Of a stretch of DNA of 64,000 nucleotides, positions 3,112 to 14,148 are shown piece after piece; position 1 is the first letter of the stretch, and each line of letters begins with the position of its first letter. Position numbers and translations under genes: made by a program. Location: sequence record MH752840.1. One strand, written 5' to 3'. The notes beneath the pieces were generated by a model. That model did no database searches and had not been told where the DNA came from. It saw only the letters and a list, made by a program, of their open reading frames with translations. Source of the stretch: Escherichia phage vB_EcoM-Pr121LW.

Positions 3112-3406
3112 TGCAGTCCTCCTTCTGTAGTAGGTCTTTTATAGGATAAACAAGTAAGTGTGGATCGGAATAACGTATAGTCTTATTCTGCCACACTATG
3201 AACTTTATTACAACCAAATTTACAATATCTTTATCACCATGTAGCCCAACACACACATTTGTCCATATTTTGTGGTTGAAGATCTTGCTATCGATGTAGA
3301 TTTTAGTGTCAAACTTATCTTCCATTCTACCTATAAGTTTGATCAGCTCCTTCATCTGGTCGCCAAACACAGCATCTTTTTCAAGATCTCTGGAATGCTT
3401 GTACAT
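3098..3406 (-). CDS. hypothetical protein
   Basis: 102-aa ORF co-oriented in the minus-strand block. Confidence 0.4.
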   Translation of the reverse strand: MYKHSRDLEKDAVFGDQMKELIKLIGRMEDKFDTKIYIDSKIFNHKIWTNVCVGLHGDKDIVNLVVIKFIVWQNKTIRYSDPHLLVYPIKDLLQKEDCNAVI

Positions 3407-3468
3407 AACTAACTACCTCGCTGCATACTTTCCATAATAAGTAAAGCCGGGATTACCCGGCTATGTTG

Positions 3469-4182
3469 TCAAATAGACTCTGTTACATCCTTGAAGCTCG
3501 AAGGCTTCATGATCTTACCTTTACTGTCAAGGAATATGATAACTTTATTACCGTTGTAGAACTCTTCCTTAGCAACAAAACCTTCGTAGCGACCACCAAA
3601 ACGACGCTCAAGATCTTTAATCTCCAACTCGATGAGTTGTTCAGCAGGCATATCTGCACTGGCACCGTGTGAATGCCGTAGATGGTTGATCCGTGCAAAC
3701 TTACTGTCATTAGATTTGAGAACCTTCCGCATCATCCCACACACATCGCCGCGAAGCTGGAACAGCAAAGCTGTTGACAACTCCGCTAAGCGGTAAGCTG
3801 ACGCTCTTTGCTTGGATGTGTTTTTCGCAGCGATCAGTGTATCATAGAACTCACCAATCTTGAACTTAAGACCTCGTGGATTATCAAACAGGTTTGACCA
3901 CTTTTCGTGATTGTCATTAACAAGATAGGCGGCATAACTTGTGACAACGTGAAGATCGCAGGCCTCTTTTAACAGGTGATCTCCACCATCACCTTTCTCC
4001 AGCTCTTCCAAAACCTCATTGAACTCTTCCTCAATGAAGCTAAGCTGTAATTCGAATGGTGTGTATGATTTTTTCACTTTAGCTGCCACACGGTTCCAGT
4101 TTTCCACCCAGTTGGCAGACCAAAGGTAGTTTTCAGGCTGAGACAGTTTTTCCAGGTTGTCGATCAGTTTAGTATTCAGCAT
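3469..4182 (-). CDS. MazG-like nucleotide pyrophosphohydrolase domain protein
   Basis: 237 aa; acidic EExxE ... ExxD helix motif (FIEEEFNEVLEELEKGDGGDHLLKEACDLH) resembling all-alpha NTP pyrophosphatases. Confidence 0.4.
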   Translation of the reverse strand: MLNTKLIDNLEKLSQPENYLWSANWVENWNRVAAKVKKSYTPFELQLSFIEEEFNEVLEELEKGDGGDHLLKEACDLHVVTSYAAYLVNDNHEKWSNLFDNPRGLKFKIGEFYDTLIAAKNTSKQRASAYRLAELSTALLFQLRGDVCGMMRKVLKSNDSKFARINHLRHSHGASADMPAEQLIELEIKDLERRFGGRYEGFVAKEEFYNGNKVIIFLDSKGKIMKPSSFKDVTESI

Positions 4183-4195
4183 TAAAGGTCTCCTT

Positions 4196-4957
4196 TTAAA
4201 GTTCCATAAAGTTTTCTACAGTTTCAATAAATGCTTTATCAGAGAAAGCGTCAACAGCACCGTTAAACCATACAGGGATCCCGCGATCCTCATATTGATA
4301 AAGGTCGCTACGTGAAATGCCACTTCCATCTGCACTCTGCGAGTCATACTTGTTTACAATCAGCAGTTTTGTGCCTTTACAAGTAGCAGGAAACAATTCC
4401 CAGTTAAAATTAATAACTGTGTTAGAACAACCTACCAGGATCACCATATCATTGCTTGTGAGAGATGTCAACAGGTCATACATGTCTGTATACTTAGGAG
4501 CAACCTCACCGAAGAACACTACATTAGGCTTAACCCAGGTATACTTGCCTGTATCTACCTCCGTATATCCGATATTTTTAATTACATCGTTACCTTCAGC
4601 ATCTTCGTAGGTGATTTCAGGCAAATACCCGTGGACATGTAAAATATCTTCATGTTTTACACCAGCACGCTCCAGCAAATCATCTACATTGGTGGTAAGG
4701 TTGATCACACGACCAGACCAGCGGGAATACCACTCAGCGATCCGAAGATGTGCAAGGTTAGGATCAACACTGCCCAGAGCTACACGACGTGCATTGTAAA
4801 AGTCATGCACCTTATAGTAGTTCTTGGCAAAGGTGTGGATGTTGCACACCTCATCGATGCTGAAATTCTCCCACATTGCAGTGCTACCAGATCGGAAAGT
4901 GGGAATACCAGATTCAGCGCTCAAACCGGCACCGGAGATAATAATCAGTCGTCGCAT
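4196..4957 (-). CDS. Sir2-family NAD-dependent protein (sirtuin-like)
   Basis: 253 aa; GAGLSAESGIPTFR, TTNVDDL..AG, HVHG and VVFFGE motifs; no CxxC zinc-ribbon pairs seen after the HG motif. Confidence 0.8.
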   Translation of the reverse strand: MRRLIIISGAGLSAESGIPTFRSGSTAMWENFSIDEVCNIHTFAKNYYKVHDFYNARRVALGSVDPNLAHLRIAEWYSRWSGRVINLTTNVDDLLERAGVKHEDILHVHGYLPEITYEDAEGNDVIKNIGYTEVDTGKYTWVKPNVVFFGEVAPKYTDMYDLLTSLTSNDMVILVGCSNTVINFNWELFPATCKGTKLLIVNKYDSQSADGSGISRSDLYQYEDRGIPVWFNGAVDAFSDKAFIETVENFMEL

Positions 4958-8947: not shown

Positions 8948-9136
8948 ATGAACAACCCGGTAGCAAAGAACTGTAATAAGTTCAACAAGTCTGCAATTCA
9001 CACTGACAGGAAAAAGAGCTGGTCTCCTGACATTGACGAGGAGCTTGAGAGTTACTTTGAAGACCTGGTCACTAATGCAGATGAGGTTGCGATTAAAGAA
9101 TACGCAGACAGGAAGGATAAGGCCGGAATCTGTTGA
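8948..9136 (+). CDS. hypothetical protein
   Basis: Small ORF; start chosen at ATG 8948 behind GAGGAG. Confidence 0.3.
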   Translation: MNNPVAKNCNKFNKSAIHTDRKKSWSPDIDEELESYFEDLVTNADEVAIKEYADRKDKAGIC

Positions 9137-9161
9137 CAAAAATAGTGTTACCTGATAAGAT
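9133..9161 (+). promoter_or_regulatory. sigma70-like promoter (TTGACA-N17-TAAGAT)
   Basis: Consensus -35 with 17-nt spacer upstream of the 9213 gene. Confidence 0.4.
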
Positions 9162-9212
9162 CTGCAATATGATGTGATGCAATTTTAACTTACGAGGTCT
9201 ACAGGTAATGCT

Positions 9213-9455
9213 ATGTTTAAGGTTAAGCTCGTTTTTCGTTCCATGAATGAGGATTATTTAGAAGATGAAGGTGAATTTCGTGCACTGGATGATGCAATAG
9301 ATTTTGCCAACGACTTAGCTTGTATGAATACAGGTTATGGGCTATGCTGTTGGGATGGTGGTGTTCAGATCGGTGATAGCAAGATCTTCTACTTCTACCC
9401 TGAGCCTGATAACAAACAAATTAAGTATGTTTTATTTATTTGTGCTTTACAATGA
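9213..9455 (+). CDS. hypothetical protein
   Basis: 80-aa ORF downstream of the promoter at 9133. Confidence 0.4.
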   Translation: MFKVKLVFRSMNEDYLEDEGEFRALDDAIDFANDLACMNTGYGLCCWDGGVQIGDSKIFYFYPEPDNKQIKYVLFICALQ

Positions 9456-9474
9456 GGTTGTTTTCGTGTATCAT
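9447..9474 (+). promoter_or_regulatory. possible promoter (TTACAA-N16-TATCAT)
   Basis: Promoter-like hexamers immediately upstream of the GC-rich structured segment. Confidence 0.25.
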
Positions 9475-9504
9475 GATGAATATCCAATTTAAAGATGAAT
9501 TTGA

Positions 9505-9743
9505 TGGCTTTATCTCCGGATGCTTTGAAACAGGGTTCGGAGAAGACTGAGTTCCCCTCAGAGGGCTTGATAGTGCACCACACTTAAAATGGTAGGGGCA
9601 GCCAGCACATGACGATGTGACCCCAGCCAACCTGTAACAAGGTCGAGCCGAAGCGCGGGTAATAGGCCTCTGGTAACCCACTTGTTGGGTCTTGCTGGTC
9701 CAGGACGCTGGACAAGTCGCAGGGAATACCACCCTGCGGCGAA
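9505..9743 (+). ncRNA. candidate structured RNA
   Basis: GC-rich intergenic segment with multiple perfect hairpins (CCCTC-A-GAGGG; CCAG-GACG-CTGG; CAGGG-AATACCA-CCCTG); only low-complexity antisense ORFs. Confidence 0.25.
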
Positions 9744-9744
9744 C

Positions 9745-9773
9745 TTGACAATCAGTATTTGCTATGATAAAAT
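9745..9773 (+). promoter_or_regulatory. sigma70-like promoter (TTGACA-N17-TAAAAT)
   Basis: Consensus hexamers with 17-nt spacer upstream of the 9802 gene. Confidence 0.5.
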
Positions 9774-9801
9774 CCACCTATCACGTGATAATGGAGGAAA
9801 C

Positions 9802-10140
9802 ATGGCGGATACAACTAAAAAGCGTCGCCGTAGAGGCAGACCTCTGAAAGAGGAGTCCAACGCCATTCAGCTAGAGAAGAACATCCTTGATATGAAGGAA
9901 TCTTTTATAGCGATGGTTCCAGAAGCTCACAAAGTTTTAAGAGAGCTGATGTTGGACCCGAAAACCAAACAAAATATTCGTCAAAGCATTGCAGAGTATG
10001 TTCTTGATAAGGCAGACCGAATGCAGGAAGAATATGATGAGATGTTTGGTGAAGAGGAAGAGGTGGTAGTAGAAGAGGCTGAAAAACCAGCACCTTTTAT
10101 GCCATTTACCACAGAAATACAACCTGTTAGCAATAGCTAA
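9802..10140 (+). CDS. AT-hook-like basic N-terminus, acidic C-terminus protein
   Basis: N-terminal KKRRRRGRPLKEE; C-terminal EEYDEMFGEEEEVVVEEAE; start at ATG 9802 behind GGAGG. Confidence 0.5.
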   Translation: MADTTKKRRRRGRPLKEESNAIQLEKNILDMKESFIAMVPEAHKVLRELMLDPKTKQNIRQSIAEYVLDKADRMQEEYDEMFGEEEEVVVEEAEKPAPFMPFTTEIQPVSNS

Positions 10141-10149
10141 AATATTTTC

Positions 10150-10178
10150 TTGACAAACTTTGCTTAACAGTGTAATAT
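10150..10178 (+). promoter_or_regulatory. sigma70-like promoter for the tRNA cluster (TTGACA-N17-TAATAT)
   Basis: Consensus hexamers about 60 nt upstream of the first tRNA. Confidence 0.5.
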
Positions 10179-10236
10179 TGTAAACATGGTCTCCCACCTT
10201 TTCTGGCGGCTAAGGTGTAAAAGAAAGCCACCCAGT

Positions 10237-10308
10237 GCCCTGTTAGCTTAGTGGATAAAGCAGCGGCCTTCTAAGCCGTTGACACTGGTTCGAGTCCAGT
10301 ACGGGGTG
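10237..10308 (+). tRNA. tRNA-Arg (anticodon TCT)
   Basis: Hand-folded cloverleaf: acceptor GCCCTGT/ACGGGGT with two G-U pairs, anticodon loop CTTCTAA, T-loop GGTTCGAGTCC, CCA encoded. Confidence 0.6.
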
Positions 10309-10442
10309 CCAAGTTCTTTTTAATGTAGCTTACTTTAGCAGAGTAAATCTTCGGCAAGTGGCGGTAACCACTTTTACCGATACCTCATAGTTAGTGGTGA
10401 GAACACTAGCTATTTTAAAAAGAATTTAAATATTAGTATTTA

Positions 10443-10527
10443 GGTGAGTTAATTCCGTAGGGGTAGCGGGGCAGACTGTAAATCTGTTATCATTGCGATT
10501 CGGGTGGTTCGACTCCATCACTCACCA
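10443..10527 (+). tRNA. tRNA-Tyr (anticodon GTA), long variable arm
   Basis: Anticodon arm GCAGACTGTAAATCTGT and variable arm resemble E. coli tRNA-Tyr; acceptor GGTGAGT/ACTCACC; CCA encoded. Confidence 0.65.
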
Positions 10528-10644
10528 CCAAATTTATATTTTTAAATGCATAAATTATACAGATAATGGCATTGATATTTATCGTCGTTTATACTAGTCA
10601 CTAACTGCTCGAAAATCAGTGTCATTATCAGTATTGTTTATAAA

Positions 10645-10732
10645 AGAGGGTAGGGAGCAATGGTGCTCAAGCGGTCTTGAAAACCGTCCCGTTGAGGATG
10701 ACTCGATGATGGTTCGATTCCATTACCCTCTG
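10645..10732 (+). tRNA. tRNA-Ser (anticodon TGA), long variable arm
   Basis: Acceptor AGAGGGT/ACCCTCT, anticodon loop CTTGAAA, T-loop GGTTCGATTCC, CCA encoded. Confidence 0.6.
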
Positions 10733-10833
10733 CCATATTGTTGACCTTGTAATTAAGCGAAAGCCGGAAGCAGAACCGGATTATCAAATGTTACAGTCGT
10801 CATCGCCGACTAGCAACATTGTCAACATACTGA

Positions 10834-10930
10834 GCTAGGTAAGCCCTTTGGCAAGGGCGAGGATTTTTAATCCTGAAAATAGACGAGGTAGTCGTTGAAT
10901 ACATAGGTGGTTCGATTCCACCACCTAGCA
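10834..10930 (+). tRNA. atypical tRNA-like element (anticodon possibly TTT; about 29-nt variable region)
   Basis: Acceptor GCTAGGT/ACCTAGC, D-arm GCCC..GGGC and T-arm GGTGGTTCGATTCCACC fold, but anticodon stem is 4 bp plus a mismatch and total length about 97 nt. Confidence 0.3.
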
Positions 10931-10937
10931 CCTTTTT

Positions 10938-11010
10938 GCTGATGTAGCACAATTGGTAGTGCAATTGATTTGTAATCAATAGGTTGCAGGTTCAAGTCCT
11001 GCCATCAGCA
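10938..11010 (+). tRNA. tRNA-Thr (anticodon TGT)
   Basis: Acceptor GCTGATG/CATCAGC, D-stem GCAC/GTGC, anticodon arm ATTGA-TTTGTAA-TCAAT, T-arm GCAGG-TTCAAGT-CCTGC, CCA encoded. Confidence 0.7.
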
Positions 11011-11014
11011 CCAT

Positions 11015-11086
11015 GGCCCTGTAGCTGGAAGGTTCAAGCAAGCGACTCATAATCGCCAGACGGTGGTTCAATTCCACCCAGGGCCA
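11015..11086 (+). tRNA. tRNA-Met or Ile2 (anticodon CAT)
   Basis: Acceptor GGCCCTG/CAGGGCC, anticodon loop CTCATAA, T-loop GGTTCAATTCC, CCA encoded. Confidence 0.65.
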
Positions 11087-11100
11087 CCAAATAGTAAATA

Positions 11101-11174
11101 CTCCGCGTAGCTCAGCTTGGTAGAGCGCCTGATTTGGGATCAGGAGGTCGAGTGTTCGAATCACTCCGTGGAGA
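11101..11174 (+). tRNA. tRNA-Pro (anticodon TGG)
   Basis: Acceptor CTCCGCG/CGTGGAG, anticodon arm CCTGA-TTTGGGA-TCAGG, T-loop GTTCGAATC, CCA encoded. Confidence 0.7.
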
Positions 11175-11223
11175 CCACTTTCAGTTATACTTTAAACATA
11201 TACACACAAAAGGAACCTTTAAA

Positions 11224-11493
11224 ATGTATACACTTAAAATTGTAGAGCGTGTAAATCCAACAAATACTGTAGATTTTCGTGACGATTTCAATCCTCTGGC
11301 TGTAAATCTTCGAGAGTCATATCATGAACTCAGCTGCGATGCAGTGGTGGTCTTTTTTGAAGACAACTCTGAAGGGGCGGTAGCTTGTGTTGTTGATAGT
11401 GAGCAGAAGTTTTATATTTACAGAGATGTAGATGCATACTTGATGAATGAAAATGCAGTTACTGTTAGAATCATCCACCGAGTGCCTCGATAA
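11224..11493 (+). CDS. hypothetical protein
   Basis: Start moved to ATG 11224 behind AAGGAA so that the CDS no longer overlaps tRNA-Pro. Confidence 0.45.
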   Translation: MYTLKIVERVNPTNTVDFRDDFNPLAVNLRESYHELSCDAVVVFFEDNSEGAVACVVDSEQKFYIYRDVDAYLMNENAVTVRIIHRVPR

Positions 11494-11543
11494 GTATTAG
11501 TCTCCTTTTAGTTAGTTTCGATCTATTTAGGTTACTAAATTTT

Positions 11544-11580
11544 AACCCGCCCCGTTAGCTGTATAGCTGCGGGGTTTTTT
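11544..11580 (+). terminator. rho-independent terminator
   Basis: GC stem CCCGC...GCGGG around an AGCTGTATAGCT palindrome followed by a T-run. Confidence 0.5.
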
Positions 11581-11598
11581 CGTTTCTGGAGCCTTAAA

Positions 11599-11997
11599 AT
11601 GATTTCAGGTTTAACATGGCTTAGTAGGTATAGAGGGATCATAAAAGGTTTAGTTTTTGCAGCGGCTATAGGTACAGCTTATCTTGGGGCCGTGTATTGG
11701 TTTAACTCTAAGCTTAATGATGCCTACCAAGAGGGTGTGTCAGCAACAGAGTTAAAGTGGGAACGGATCCTTGATCAGCAACAAAAGCAGGCCGACAAAA
11801 TTAAAATGGGCCACGCAGAGGAGGTTAAAAACCTTGAAAAATCTCTTTCTGATCTGCAGGATAAATTAAATATAGCTGAGAGGGCAGGTAGAGAAAAGCA
11901 GATTATCTACCTCCAATCACCTGAAGGTAAGAAGTCAACACTCCCTGATCAGCTTATAGATATTTATAATGAGAGTATCAATCAGGAGGATCTATGA
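11599..11997 (+). CDS. i-spanin (Rz-like)
   Basis: N-terminal transmembrane segment GLVFAAAIGTAYLGAVYWF followed by a coiled-coil periplasmic domain. Confidence 0.55.
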   Translation: MISGLTWLSRYRGIIKGLVFAAAIGTAYLGAVYWFNSKLNDAYQEGVSATELKWERILDQQQKQADKIKMGHAEEVKNLEKSLSDLQDKLNIAERAGREKQIIYLQSPEGKKSTLPDQLIDIYNESINQEDL

Positions 11998-12281
11998 GAG
12001 TTGCTGCACTGTTTATTGTGTGCTTTTTATTATGCGGGTGTGCAACCAGCGTTGAGAGAGAATACAAGATTGACCCTCCTGATGTAGGAAGGTTGATTGT
12101 TAAACCCCCGGAAGGTGCCATGAAACCACCTGCTAAAGCTATGCCTTTGAAGAAAGGTGCGCCAGATGCAGTGAATTCTGGCATTATGAGGGATAATAAT
12201 CTGTCTTGTAGCAATGATAGAGCTAAATTGATCATTTTGCAAGACTATATTAGAACACTGTTTCCAAAGGAGAGAGGTTAA
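11994..12281 (+). CDS. o-spanin (Rz1-like outer-membrane lipoprotein)
   Basis: Signal peptide with lipobox-like FLLCGC, proline-rich mature region; overlaps i-spanin stop; AGGAGG RBS. Confidence 0.55.
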   Translation: MRVAALFIVCFLLCGCATSVEREYKIDPPDVGRLIVKPPEGAMKPPAKAMPLKKGAPDAVNSGIMRDNNLSCSNDRAKLIILQDYIRTLFPKERG

Positions 12282-12706
12282 TGTCTAAGATTTACGGACC
12301 GTGTTCTGAAAAGCAGAAGATGATCCTCGAAAACGATGCAGATATTTTGGTAATCGGCGGTGCCGCAGGGTCTGGCAAGTCGTTCCTCTTGCAGTTGATG
12401 CCGCTTAAAATTATCGATGACCCCCACAGCTCTGTGGTTATGTTCCGAAGAACAACCCCACAGTTGGAAGGTGAGGGTGGACTATGGCCTAAAGCAGTAG
12501 CTATTTATAGCGATCTGCCTGAAAACATTAAGCCAAAGTTCAGAGAGAAGGATCATAAGTTCATTTTTCCACGGTTTGATCCGAACACTGGCAAGTGGGA
12601 TAGAAGCAAAAAGGGAGCTGTTGTAAAATACTGCCACATGGAGTATGTACAAGATAAGCTTAACCATCAAGGGCTTGAGTACACCATGGTTTGCTTCGAT
12701 GAGGGT
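12281..12706 (+). CDS. terL: terminase large subunit, exon 1 (ATPase domain)
   Basis: Walker A GGAAGSGKS, Walker B-like MVCFDE; ORF stops at TAA 12707-12709, taken as the first intron codon. Confidence 0.7.
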
Positions 12707-13023
12707 TAATTTGTAGCTCTCGTAAAACCTCCCTAATTGCGGGGAAATCTTTACTATTAATACCACCAACCTGTCATGGTAACATGATAGAGGCTTCGAA
12801 GAGAGATCGAAGGTATGGTAACAGTGTGTTAATTTAGATAATCCGCAGCGAAGCATCCGAGAGGATGAACGTTCAACGACTAGTCGAAAGACGTAGAATC
12901 AAGCGATTCGAAACGGGAGGGTAAGCGGTTGTTGTCGCTTATAAGATATAGTCTGGTCTGCATGGAGACATGCAGCTGCCTGAAAAATGGCGGGGCAAGA
13001 CTAGCGACCTTGCCCGAACATAG
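12707..13023 (+). ncRNA. group I self-splicing intron (no internal ORF); boundaries approximate
   Basis: Conserved core motifs GTTCAACGACTAGTCG (12871-12886) and AAGATATAGTC (12943-12953); splits terL; 5' exon ends in U, intron ends in G. Confidence 0.6.
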
Positions 13024-14148
13024 ACGACACAATTCGAATGGGAGCAGATAGACTATCTGATGTCTCGTCTGCGATCTCAGTCAAAGTATCCATCAAGGAT
13101 GGTTATCAGCTGTAACCCTGATTCAGAACACATGCTTGCCAAACTGGTTAGATGGTGGTTGGACGATGAAGGGTATCCAGATCCGGAGAAATGTGGTAAG
13201 AAAAGATATTTTATCCGACGCGACGGTGAATTTATTTGGGGGGACTCTAAGGAGGAGTTGATAGAGAAATACACCACGGTTAACGGACTGGGTGTAGAGA
13301 TCAAGCCAAGACCGTTGTCATTCTCGTTCATAGGCGCAACAATATTCGATAATCCTGTCTGTTTGAGAGACAACCCAGAATACCTTGCTTTCCTCGAAGG
13401 TCTACCAGAGCTGGAAAAAGCTCAGCTTCTCCATGGTAACTGGTTTGCAAAGCCTGAGGGTGCAAACTATTTTCAAAGATCTTTCCTTCGTGATGCCGAT
13501 AGAGTACCCCTTGGATCAGTATCTTGCAGGGCATGGGATAAGGCAGGAACCGAGAGAACTTCTGGCAATAAATTTCCTGACTTTACTGCCAGTATTAAGG
13601 TAAGTAAAGATAGCGACGGCTTTTATTACCTGTCAGGGGATTATTGTCCTGAAAACGTGGATGACGGGAGGTATTCCACAGGTCTGGAAGGCAAGTTCTG
13701 TAAAAAGGCTGGTGAACGAGATGTGATCATCAGGAAACAGGCGCAGTTTGATGGTGATGATTGCATAATCGTATTCTCTGTGGACCCTGGTCAGGCAGGT
13801 AAGAGTGAGTTCTTAACCTCATCCAGATCCTTGCTCGCAGAAGGGTTCAGGGTTGAAGAAGACCCAATGCCTTCCAACAAGTCTAAACTGACAAGGTTCT
13901 CACCTTTTGCCAATCTTGCCCAACAAGGGATGGTGAGGATTGTAAAATCCAGTTTCCATCCTGATACTCTGGAAGCATTTCTGACCGAACTTGAAAAATT
14001 CAACGGGGAAAGATCAACATTTAACAGAAAAGACGACTGGGCTGACTGTGTAGCTTCTGCAATTAATTTCCTGGAGAAAGAGGAGGTAGCACTTCCTTGT
14101 GTGATTCCATCAATCTCATCACCTTCTATGTTCAAGCGTTTTATCTAG
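13024..14148 (+). CDS. terL: terminase large subunit, exon 2 (nuclease domain)
   Basis: Frame opens at 13024 right after an in-frame TAG; encodes TTQFEWEQIDYLMSRLRS... continuing the TerL fold with acidic nuclease motifs (DPGQAGKSEF, DDWADC). Confidence 0.65.
   Translation, partial: TTQFEWEQIDYLMSRLRSQSKYPSRMVISCNPDSEHMLAKLVRWWLDDEGYPDPEKCGKKRYFIRRDGEFIWGDSKEELIEKYTTVNGLGVEIKPRPLSFSFIGATIFDNPVCLRDNPEYLAFLEGLPELEKAQLLHGNWFAKPEGANYFQRSFLRDADRVPLGSVSCRAWDKAGTERTSGNKFPDFTASIKVSKDSDGFYYLSGDYCPENVDDGRYSTGLEGKFCKKAGERDVIIRKQAQFDGDDCIIVFSVDPGQAGKSEFLTSSRSLLAEGFRVEEDPMPSNKSKLTRFSPFANLAQQGMVRIVKSSFHPDTLEAFLTELEKFNGERSTFNRKDDWADCVASAINFLEKEEVALPCVIPSISSPSMFKRFI

What the first reader, a model, noticed from the sequence alone, without database searches (positions are those of the whole stretch)
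9802..10140. Small protein with AT-hook-like N-terminus and polyacidic C-terminus
The N-terminus KKRRRRGRPLKEE resembles an AT-hook DNA-binding peptide and the C-terminus is a run of Glu and hydrophobic residues (EEYDEMFGEEEEVVVEEAE). Basic-plus-acidic proteins of this kind in phages include nucleoid-associated proteins and DNA-mimic inhibitors of host enzymes. It has its own consensus promoter and sits just upstream of the tRNA cluster.
Basis: inference. Interest (0 to 1): 0.35.

Follow-up and report, generated by a model that had tools for sequence, protein, structure and literature searches.

The report
Likely missing small terminase of rV5-like phages
This small basic-then-acidic protein is most likely the so far unannotated DNA-recognition subunit (small terminase) of the genome-packaging motor of rV5-like E. 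coli phages, built in an unusual way with an AT-hook-like arm where other small terminases carry a helix-turn-helix domain.

Summary
The ORF (9802-10140, +, 112 aa) is real. It has a Shine-Dalgarno site and a near-consensus sigma-70 promoter, shows third-codon-position drift, and is conserved in about 225 Vequintavirinae phage genomes, always labelled 'hypothetical'.

The acidic run is a variable, disordered linker, and the true C-terminus is a conserved PFTT(E/D)I peptide.

The interpretation (nucleoid protein or DNA mimic) is not what the evidence favours. I think it is the small terminase (TerS), confidence about 0.7, for these reasons:
- The two-helix core aligns profile-to-profile with the oligomerisation hairpin of PaP3-type TerS.
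- Intermediate proteins hit TerS families.
- It is the only ORF in the whole genome whose sequence matches the hairpin core of the TerS profiles.
- In distant relatives the gene abuts the large terminase gene (0-12 nt).
- In this window it lies 2.1 kb upstream of TerL on the same strand, separated by tRNAs, a small ORF and spanins.
- No other TerS is annotated in this headful-packaging group.

It has no helix-turn-helix. The only invariant residues of the family are the G-R-P of an AT-hook-like arm.

Side finding: a conserved structured-RNA-like motif lies just upstream and is shared with T4-like phages.

The parts
9745..9773 (+). Sigma-70-type promoter of the gene (TTGACA, 17 nt spacer, TAAAAT, with TG before the -10 hexamer)
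   Evidence: 11 of 12 consensus matches, the best site in the scanned region. The TTGACAATC -35 block is invariant in the alignment with distant relatives.
9793..9798 (+). Shine-Dalgarno sequence GGAGGA, 3 nt before the ATG
   Evidence: Read directly from the sequence.
9802..10140 (+). Coding sequence, 112 aa; candidate small terminase subunit (TerS)
   Evidence: ORF and translation. PHROG 3330, E 8e-47. Family alignments A1 and A5. Codon-position differences 23/17/67.
9817..9849 (+). Residues 6-16, KKRRRRGRPLK: AT-hook-like basic arm, inferred DNA contact
   Evidence: G12, R13 and P14 are the only invariant columns in the 19-sequence wide alignment. Sub-threshold Pfam AT_hook hits in 5 of 19 members. 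Predicted non-helical.
9847..10047 (+). Residues 16-82: two long helices (16-51 and 53-82) with a turn at the DPKTK segment. Residues 29-72 align with the TerS oligomerisation hairpin.
   Evidence: AlphaFold2 model, pLDDT 74-89 over residues 21-80. hhalign to two TerS families. TerS HMM hits to exactly this stretch.
10018..10080 (+). Residues 73-93: acidic linker (net charge -9), variable in sequence and predicted disordered
   Evidence: The analogous acidic disordered tail of PaP3 TerS is described in PMC7672466.
10102..10119 (+). Residues 101-106, PFTTEI: conserved C-terminal peptide, inferred large-terminase docking motif
   Evidence: P101, F102, T104 and I106 are at least 90% conserved. 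More distant relatives carry PLTTEIREY, GIVVNFGG or VIDWG at the same place.
10150..10178 (+). Separate sigma-70-type promoter for the tRNA cluster
   Evidence: Annotated as a promoter in phage ECML-10.
10237..11177 (+). tRNA cluster lying between the candidate TerS and the rest of the packaging module
   Evidence: In relatives the distance from the homologue to TerL grows with the number of tRNAs.
11599..12281 (+). i-spanin and o-spanin genes, lying between the candidate TerS and TerL
   Evidence: ORFs. Annotation of the same genes in BASEL phage RudolfGeigy and in 241Ecol014PP.
12281..14148 (+). Large terminase gene (TerL), interrupted by a group I intron at 12697-12975; the inferred partner of the candidate TerS
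   Evidence: Rfam Intron_gpI, 84 bits. ORFs. Annotation in relatives. tblastn.

Best explanation
The gene most likely encodes the small terminase subunit (TerS) of this rV5-like (Vequintavirus) phage.

Proposed mechanism:
1. The two long helices form the antiparallel hairpin that assembles TerS protomers into a ring. The hairpin is inferred from homology and prediction; the ring is inferred.
2. The N-terminal RRRRGRP arms project from the ring and hold the phage's packaging-initiation DNA. An AT-hook-like motif would most plausibly do this through the minor groove of AT-rich DNA. These arms stand in for the helix-turn-helix domain of other TerS proteins (inferred).
3. The acidic flexible linker presents the conserved C-terminal PFTTEI peptide to the large terminase. 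This recruits and regulates TerL so that headful packaging starts on phage DNA (inferred by analogy with P22, lambda and RcGTA).

In Vequintavirinae, a tRNA array, a small ORF and the spanin genes lie between this gene and TerL. That separation is probably why it was never annotated as TerS.
For: (1) Remote homology, consistent across three profiles.
- The family profile A5 aligns residues 29-72 with the helical core of a TerS-like family, A6: hhalign probability 88%, E 2.9e-6.
- The same residues align with positions 66-107 of the PaP3 TerS family, A4: 65%, E 6e-5.
- A6 and A4 are clearly homologous over 113 columns: 97.4%, E 1.3e-11.
- PaP3 residues 64-105 are the alpha4-alpha5 oligomerisation hairpin in the crystal structure (PMC7672466).

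(2) Bridging sequences.
- The profile search of 1.84 billion proteins recovered P0047 at E 3.6e-4.
- P0047 hits TerS PHROG 2538 at 5.4e-9 and PHROG 3330 at 1.1e-7.
- Family members P0040 and P0045 hit TerS PHROGs weakly.
- PaP3 and NV1 TerS appear among the top PDB profile hits at the same region, though not significantly.

(3) Specificity within the genome.
- The search covered 1548 six-frame ORF segments: the window plus the rest of a 99.5%-identical genome.
- This ORF is the only hit of the PaP3-type TerS HMM (E 4.7e-4).
- It is the only hit to the core of the second TerS HMM. That HMM's other hit is the helix-turn-helix of an HNH endonuclease.

(4) Gene position.
- In distant relatives the homologue directly abuts TerL.
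- In L005 the stop codon TAA is followed at once by the TerL start codon, and TerL's ribosome-binding site lies inside the last codons of the homologue.
- In L006 about 12 nt separate the two genes. Portal follows in both.
- Wherever TerL lay inside the fetched flank, it was downstream of the homologue on the same strand. The gap runs from 0 to 4.8 kb and grows with the number of intervening tRNAs, 0 to 18.
- PaP3 itself has the order tRNAs, TerS, lysozyme, TerL, portal.

(5) Architecture. A basic arm, two long helices, an acidic disordered tail and a conserved terminal peptide parallel the TerS plan and the acidic tail of PaP3 (PMC9611059, PMC7672466). RcGTA gp1 is an experimentally shown TerS without a helix-turn-helix (PMC6854486).

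(6) The slot is vacant.
- No TerS is annotated in any of the 60 listed records (225 match) or in the curated BASEL genomes.
- The rV5 paper does not name one.
- Vequintavirus is reported to use headful (pac) packaging (PMC13211470), and headful packaging generally relies on a TerS.
Against: - The homology covers only about 44 residues of a helical hairpin. The scores are moderate: hhalign 65-88%, HMM E around 1e-3 to 1e-4 in small search spaces, and a non-significant profile-against-PDB result.
- There is no helix-turn-helix, which a recent review calls the most conserved TerS feature. At 13.1 kDa the protein is below the usual 15-21 kDa (PMC9611059).
- In this window the gene is 2.1 kb from TerL, has its own strong sigma-70 promoter and precedes tRNAs, so early expression cannot be excluded.
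- Fold searches of the monomer model were uninformative. The model's pTM is 0.29.
- Oligomerisation, DNA binding, TerL binding and the packaging phenotype are all untested.
- The context of one TerS-like bridging family (P0150) could not be interpreted.
Confidence: 0.7

Rival explanations
1. It is a packaging-associated accessory factor and not TerS itself. On this view it is a small DNA-bending or site-marking protein co-expressed with TerL that helps initiation, while the true TerS is something else or is dispensable.
For: The gene sits tightly next to TerL in L005 and L006. An AT-hook-like arm suggests architectural DNA binding. The protein is small and has no helix-turn-helix.
Against: The helical core is homologous to the TerS oligomerisation hairpin specifically. 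No other ORF in the genome resembles a TerS. The genes neighbouring it in distant relatives are spanins or unrelated ORFs with no TerS signal.
Confidence: 0.12
2. It is an AT-hook DNA-binding protein that acts on host or phage chromatin or on transcription, as a nucleoid-associated protein or small regulator, expressed early from its sigma-70 promoter.
For: The invariant GRP core has basic flanks. The promoter is near-consensus. The gene lies among small genes of unknown function and tRNAs.
Against: There are no hits to any NAP or regulator family. Sigma-70-like promoters occur throughout the rV5 genome, including late regions (PMC3606486). This view does not explain the conserved abutment to TerL in distant relatives, the TerS-core homology or the conserved C-terminal docking-type peptide.
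Confidence: 0.1
3. It is a DNA-mimic or anti-defence protein whose polyacidic segment imitates DNA and inhibits host restriction or other DNA-targeting enzymes.
For: The acidic run has net charge -9 over 21 residues and the whole protein has pI 4.9. Small acidic anti-restriction proteins are common in phages (general knowledge).
Against: The acidic segment is the least conserved and least confidently folded part of the protein, whereas known mimics present a rigid acidic surface. The N-terminus is strongly basic. There is no similarity to known mimics or to anything in Pfam or the PDB. The position next to TerL is unexplained. A validated TerS has the same kind of tail (PMC7672466).
Confidence: 0.04

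Closest known systems
PaP3 / NV1 / SF6-type phage small terminase (PDB 7JOQ, 6W7T; the PaP3 family carries Pfam PF20901)
   Same: The two-helix oligomerisation hairpin aligns in the same register, including the turn: 'DPKTKQNIR' here against 'DPNEKGGIR' in PaP3. An acidic disordered tail follows. The gene lies upstream of TerL and portal, with another function in between: a lysozyme in PaP3, tRNAs, a small ORF and spanins here.
   Different: There is no N-terminal three-helix helix-turn-helix domain and no predicted beta-strand stalk. The protein is 112 aa against 152 aa. It gives no Pfam hit. It has an AT-hook-like arm and a conserved terminal PFTTEI peptide that PaP3 lacks.
RcGTA gp1, the 'GTA-type' small terminase (PMC6854486)
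   Same: It is a small, almost wholly helical protein that begins with the coiled-coil oligomerisation region, lacks a helix-turn-helix and carries a conserved C-terminal TerL-interaction segment. It shows that a TerS can function without the canonical DNA-binding domain.
   Different: No sequence relationship was tested or seen here. RcGTA gp1 has no dedicated DNA-reading element, which fits random packaging. This protein has an invariant basic GRP arm, which suggests it retains a defined DNA contact.
AT-hook motif (Pfam PF02178; HMGA-type minor-groove-binding peptide)
   Same: It has the R-G-R-P core flanked by Lys and Arg, located in an unstructured segment. Relatives reach 16.1 bits against a 17.4-bit cut-off.
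   Different: There is a single copy per chain, attached to an oligomerising helical core. The residues after the core (LKEESNAIQLEKN) are themselves invariant within Vequintavirinae and start a helix, which is not part of the AT-hook definition. The window protein does not score against the Pfam model.
T4-type small terminase gp16 / 44RR TerS (PDB 3TXS)
   Same: It belongs to a myovirus with headful packaging. Its ordered core is essentially a long helical hairpin without a beta-barrel stalk, with flexible N- and C-terminal parts (PMC9611059).
   Different: No sequence similarity was detected in the PDB profile searches. [quoted passage not shown]

Membership tests
Phage small terminase (TerS), functional class | Encoded in the packaging module, upstream of and on the same strand as the large terminase gene | tested here: met
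   The homologue lies 0-12 nt from the TerL start in L005 and L006. In the window it is 2.1 kb upstream on the same strand, with only tRNAs, one small ORF and the spanins between. The gap grows with the tRNA count.
Phage small terminase (TerS), functional class | Central helical-hairpin oligomerisation core | tested here: met
   AlphaFold2 predicts helices 16-51 and 53-82. hhalign aligns residues 29-72 with the core of two TerS families: 88% with E 2.9e-6, and 65% with E 6e-5. TerS HMMs hit only this stretch in the genome. This rests on prediction and homology only, not on a solved structure.
Phage small terminase (TerS), functional class | [quoted passage not shown] | tested here: not met
   Only 15 residues precede the first helix, which runs unbroken to residue 51. 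The alignments to TerS profiles exclude their helix-turn-helix parts. RcGTA gp1 is a precedent for a TerS without one (PMC6854486).
Phage small terminase (TerS), functional class | Flexible C-terminal moiety that binds TerL | tested here: inconclusive
   An acidic linker with low pLDDT and a conserved terminal PFTT(E/D)I peptide are present. Binding to TerL could not be tested.
Phage small terminase (TerS), functional class | Ring oligomer of 8-12 subunits; binds the pac or cos site; modulates TerL ATPase and nuclease activity; essential for packaging in vivo | not testable with these tools
   This needs biochemistry and genetics. Only single-chain structure prediction was available.
Pfam PF20901 (the domain precomputed for PaP3 TerS relatives) | Score above the curated Pfam threshold | tested here: not met
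   No PF20901 hit for the window protein, even at E up to 10, nor among the families most often matched by the 19 members. The relationship shows only profile-to-profile.
AT-hook motif (PF02178) | Gly-Arg-Pro core flanked by basic residues in an unstructured segment | tested here: met
   The sequence is RRRRGRPLK at residues 8-16. G12, R13 and P14 are invariant and R9 nearly so across 19 diverse homologues. The segment is predicted non-helical.
AT-hook motif (PF02178) | Score above the Pfam gathering cut-off (17.4 bits) | tested here: not met
   The window protein gives no hit. Five of 19 relatives hit below the cut-off, the best at 16.1 bits with E 0.0097.
AT-hook motif (PF02178) | Binds the minor groove of AT-rich DNA | not testable with these tools
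   This needs EMSA or footprinting, with netropsin or distamycin competition.
DNA-mimic anti-restriction proteins (Ocr / ArdA type) | A folded, conserved acidic surface that imitates the DNA backbone, or homology to a known mimic | tested here: not met
   The acidic stretch has low pLDDT (49-61) and varies in sequence. There is no Pfam or PDB similarity to such proteins.
Bacterial or phage nucleoid-associated proteins (HU / IHF / H-NS type) | Homology to a known NAP fold or family | tested here: not met

The most novel reading that the evidence does not exclude
This is a minimal small terminase that has dispensed with the helix-turn-helix domain thought to be common to all phage TerS proteins. 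Instead it reads its packaging site with a ring of AT-hook arms inserted into the minor groove of AT-rich DNA, and recruits TerL through a short linear peptide on an acidic tether. That would be a new mode of packaging-site recognition. A more speculative extension is that the conserved structured-RNA-like element directly upstream (9548-9746, shared with T4-like phages) is functionally tied to it.
Probability: 0.3. Interest if true: 0.65.

Novelty: new variant of a known kind. Interest (0 to 1): 0.45.

Why it matters
Vequintavirinae (rV5, phi92, PVP-SE1 and their relatives) are widely isolated and used as therapeutic and biocontrol phages. No small terminase is named in any of the annotations examined here, including the carefully curated ones.

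Assigning it would:
- fill a gap in the core gene set;
- give an anchor for finding the pac site and for judging how readily these phages transduce host DNA;
- give annotation pipelines a rule for PHROG 3330.

Mechanistically, a TerS that replaces the helix-turn-helix with a single AT-hook-like arm would widen the known ways a packaging motor recognises its own DNA. It would also offer a very small, tractable model (112 aa) for the TerS ring and for TerL recruitment by a short peptide.

Tried and rejected
- **hhalign of the narrow family A1 against the single PaP3 sequence.** It gave 7% probability. Family-to-family profiles were needed.
- **Profile against PDB sequences.** PaP3 and NV1 TerS appeared at E 0.2-1.1, which is not significant alone.
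- **Searches for related loci.**
  - With A2, the alignment was too diverse to use.
  - With P0047 and P0044, no loci were found.
- **Context of the TerS-like bridging protein P0150.** The neighbouring genes had no PHROG hits, so it neither supports nor contradicts the TerS reading.
- **Nearby repeats as candidate pac sites.** The search returned only tRNA T-arm repeats and short chance pairs.
- **Upstream GC-rich region.**
  - The single-sequence fold z-score was only -1.2.
  - RNAalifold on the MAFFT alignment misregistered the variable hairpin.
  - A 15-mer scan of viral contigs returned about 120 hits at the number chance would predict. None was confirmed by nhmmer apart from the loci already known.
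- **A longer ORF starting at TTG 9682 (152 aa).** Rejected. Homologues all start at the ATG-equivalent position, and that ATG has the Shine-Dalgarno site and follows the promoter.
- **Other local ORFs as the true TerS** (8359, 8927, 9213, 11224, and the neighbours in L005 and L006). None has any TerS signal, and the L006 neighbours are spanins.

Full report
**Where the window comes from.** The region 9000-11000 is 99.5% identical to Escherichia phage 241Ecol014PP and 97-99% identical to many other Vequintavirus (rV5-like) myoviruses.

**The observation.**
- The ORF runs from ATG 9802 to the stop at 10138-10140 on the + strand and encodes 112 aa.
- A GGAGGA ribosome-binding site lies at 9793-9798.
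- The best sigma-70-type promoter in the neighbourhood precedes it: TTGACA-17-TAAAAT with an upstream TG at 9745-9773, 11 of 12 matches.
- A second promoter (10150-10178) and a cluster of tRNA genes (10237-11177) follow.
- The charge pattern is as described. Residues 1-18 have net charge +5 and residues 73-93 net -9. The protein is 13.1 kDa with pI 4.9.
- The gene is really coding. It matches PHROG 3330 ('unknown function') at E 8e-47. It has homologues in 225 phage records. Against a 70%-identical homologue, substitutions fall 23/17/67 on codon positions 1/2/3.
- One point needs correcting. The acidic run is not the C-terminus. Eighteen more residues follow and contain a nearly invariant P-F-x-T-x-I motif.

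**Anatomy from comparison.** I used an alignment of 28 homologues from Vequintavirinae and a wider one that adds distant relatives found by a profile search of 1.84 billion proteins. Together they show four parts.
1. A basic arm, K/R-rich then G-R-P. G12, R13 and P14 are the only invariant positions in the wide family.
2. A helical region. AlphaFold2 models it as two long helices (16-51 and 53-82) with pLDDT 74-89.
3. An acidic linker that varies in sequence and length and has low confidence.
4. A short conserved C-terminal peptide: PFTT(E/D)I here, and PLTTEIREY, GIVVNFGG or VIDWG in remoter relatives.

No Pfam family is hit. AT_hook is the only Pfam model matched by more than one family member (5 of 19). 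All of those hits are below the curated cut-off, and the window protein is not among them.

**Lead to a packaging function.** A profile search of PDB sequences put the PaP3 small terminase near the top at a non-significant E of 0.2. The match was 'iPdAhkvlrdlm..ktkdnireniakyviekg' against 'APAARKVVLEIMNDPNEKGGIRLKAAQDILDRAG'. I tested this lead in several independent ways.

*Profile-profile comparison.* I built an alignment of PaP3 TerS relatives (A4). I built a second from relatives of P0047, a 207-aa protein recovered by the family profile at E 3.6e-4 (A6).
- A6 against A4 is clearly homologous over the helix-turn-helix, hairpin and stalk: 97.4%, E 1.3e-11.
- The family of interest (A5) aligns with A6 at 88%, E 2.9e-6.
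- A5 aligns with A4 at 65%, E 6e-5.
- In both cases it is residues 29-72 that align, and the region is equivalent in all three comparisons.
- In the PaP3 crystal structure that region (residues 64-105) is the alpha4-alpha5 hairpin that forms the oligomerisation core. An acidic disordered tail comes later in the chain, after a short beta-strand (PMC7672466).

*Family libraries.*
- P0047 hits TerS PHROG 2538 at 5.4e-9 and PHROG 3330 at 1.1e-7.
- Family members P0040 and P0045 hit TerS PHROGs weakly, at 0.007 and 0.0025.

*Specificity within the genome.*
- HMMs of A4 and A6 were run against all 675 six-frame ORF segments of the window. They were then run against the 873 segments of the rest of a 99.5%-identical genome.
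- The PaP3-type model hits only this ORF: E 2e-4 in the window and 4.7e-4 over all 1548 segments.
- The second model hits this ORF's core. Its only other hit is the helix-turn-helix of an HNH endonuclease.

*Gene position.*
- In the window the order is: this gene, tRNAs, a small ORF, i-spanin, o-spanin, TerL (split by a group I intron), portal, protease, scaffold, capsid. All are on the same strand.
- The same order holds across Vequintavirinae genera. There the gene is often embedded in the tRNA array.
- In two remoter relatives without tRNAs the homologue abuts TerL.
  - In L005 its last codons (…GGAGGT TAA) contain TerL's ribosome-binding site, and the TerL start codon follows the stop directly.
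  - In L006 about 12 nt separate the two genes, and the spanins lie on the other side.
- Across loci the distance to TerL grows from 0 to 4.8 kb with the number of intervening tRNAs, 0 to 18.
- PaP3 itself has the order tRNAs, TerS, lysozyme, TerL, portal, so a lysis gene between the terminase subunits has a precedent.

*A vacant slot.*
- None of the 60 records listed for the protein search (225 match) calls this or any neighbouring gene a small terminase.
- The curated BASEL genomes open at the i-spanin gene and label this ORF hypothetical.
- The complete annotation of 241Ecol014PP has no TerS.
- The rV5 genome paper discusses only TerL and its introns.
- Vequintavirus is reported to package by a headful (pac) mechanism (PMC13211470).

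**Most likely mechanism.** I therefore think the protein is the phage's small terminase, with confidence about 0.7.
- Shown here: the homology of the helical core to a TerS oligomerisation hairpin, the conserved gene position, and the domain layout.
- Inferred: the hairpin builds a ring. The GRP arms bind the packaging-initiation DNA, most plausibly in the minor groove of AT-rich sequence as AT-hooks do. The acidic tether and terminal peptide dock onto TerL, as the C-terminal tails of P22, lambda and RcGTA TerS do (PMC9611059, PMC6854486).

**Points against.**
- The similarity is short and only moderately scored.
- There is no helix-turn-helix, which a recent review calls the most conserved TerS feature. 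The protein is also smaller than the usual 15-21 kDa (PMC9611059).
- The gene is separate from TerL in this genome and has its own strong promoter.
- Fold searches of the monomer were uninformative.

The promoter argument is weak in either direction. Sigma-70-like promoters are spread through the rV5 genome, including late regions, and the gene lies in the same proposed transcription unit as the morphogenesis genes (PMC3606486).

**Rivals.**
- *A packaging accessory factor, not TerS itself (0.12).* This fits the position next to TerL. It does not explain the specific core homology or the lack of any other TerS candidate.
- *A nucleoid-associated protein or regulator with an AT-hook (0.10).* This fits the arm and the promoter. 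It has no family support, and it does not explain the abutment to TerL or the terminal peptide.
- *A DNA mimic (0.04).* This is contradicted by the disordered, variable nature of the acidic segment and by the strongly basic N-terminus.

**Comparison with known systems.**
- The protein works like a small terminase and is distantly homologous to the PaP3/SF6-type core. It is not a member of the corresponding Pfam family by curated thresholds, and it fails the helix-turn-helix criterion.
- The nearest functional precedent for a TerS without a helix-turn-helix is RcGTA gp1. That protein has no dedicated DNA-reading element, whereas this one has an invariant AT-hook-like arm.
- I found no paper that links an AT-hook to a small terminase. 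Both full-text hits were unrelated.
- I rate it a new variant of a known kind, of moderate interest.

**Noticed in passing: the 'empty' GC-rich stretch upstream (9548-9746).**
- It is conserved in a related clade whose copy of the protein is only 70% identical.
- There it has its own consensus promoter directly upstream.
- It contains a two-tier hairpin followed by a roughly 40-nt near-invariant core, AACCTGTAAYAAGGTCGAGCCNAAGYGCGGTAATRG.
- The same core, preceded by a hairpin of different sequence, occurs in two other phage groups.
  - In about 400 T4-like phages it lies between denV and vs.8. In T4 it overlaps the annotated vs.8 start.
  - It also occurs inside the tRNA cluster of a 151-kb Pseudomonas phage.
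- The hairpin arms are perfectly complementary in all five sequence versions.
- Rfam 15 has no match for it in any of these phages.
- This looks like an undescribed structured RNA motif and deserves its own follow-up.

Noticed in passing
window 9548-9746 (+); hairpin 9595-9624; conserved core 9629-9666. Also L029 4724-4895, T4 locus L160 about 1465-1545, L162 about 565-650, L161 about 1475-1540.: This is a conserved, GC-rich, non-coding element just upstream of the gene. It has a two-tier hairpin followed by a roughly 40-nt near-invariant core, AACCTGTAAYAAGGTCGAGCCNAAGYGCGGTAATRG.

The hairpin arms are perfectly complementary in five different sequence versions: rV5-like, a related clade, T4, Dhakavirus and a Pseudomonas phage.

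Context differs by phage. In the related clade it has its own consensus promoter. In T4-like phages it lies between denV and vs.8. In Pseudomonas phage PsgM04F it lies inside the tRNA cluster.

Rfam 15 has no match. It is probably an undescribed phage structured RNA.
   Followed up: partly
T4 locus L160 1491-1543 (AF158101 about 64860-64912, minus strand): The annotated start of T4 gene vs.8 lies inside the hairpin of the RNA-like motif. In Dhakavirus phage dhaeg the vs.8 homologue is annotated to start about 60 nt after the motif. The first 16 or so codons of T4 vs.8 may therefore be mis-annotated, or the motif may be a 5' regulatory element of vs.8.
   Followed up: partly
window 12697-12975 (+), within TerL (12281-14148): A group I intron (Rfam RF00028, 84 bits) interrupts the large terminase gene. 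Relatives carry further insertions and HNH or endonuclease VII genes at other positions in TerL. Terminase introns are already described for rV5.
   Followed up: partly
window 10443-10527 and 10834-10932 (+): Two atypical tRNA-like genes. One is found by Rfam (39 bits) but not by ARAGORN; tRNA-Tyr is annotated at about this position in relatives. The other is called by ARAGORN with a four-base anticodon (atcc) and is 99 nt long (Rfam 37 bits). They may be intron-containing, degenerate or frameshift-suppressor-like tRNAs.
   Followed up: no
L001 (phage ECML-10) 3803-4138; also MG963916 (phage PDX): The ORF is present (98-100% identical) in these GenBank records but is not annotated at all.
   Followed up: yes
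L006 5167-6399 compared with window 9802-12281: The spanin pair lies upstream of the candidate TerS in the distant relative L006. In Vequintavirinae it lies between the candidate TerS and TerL. The lysis and tRNA cassettes have therefore moved around a TerS-TerL core.
   Followed up: partly
L009 (4.4-kb metagenome contig) 1947-2282 and 3265-4389: In this short contig the homologue is followed within about 600 nt by a portal gene, with no TerL detected between them. This may be an assembly artefact or a different gene order.
   Followed up: no
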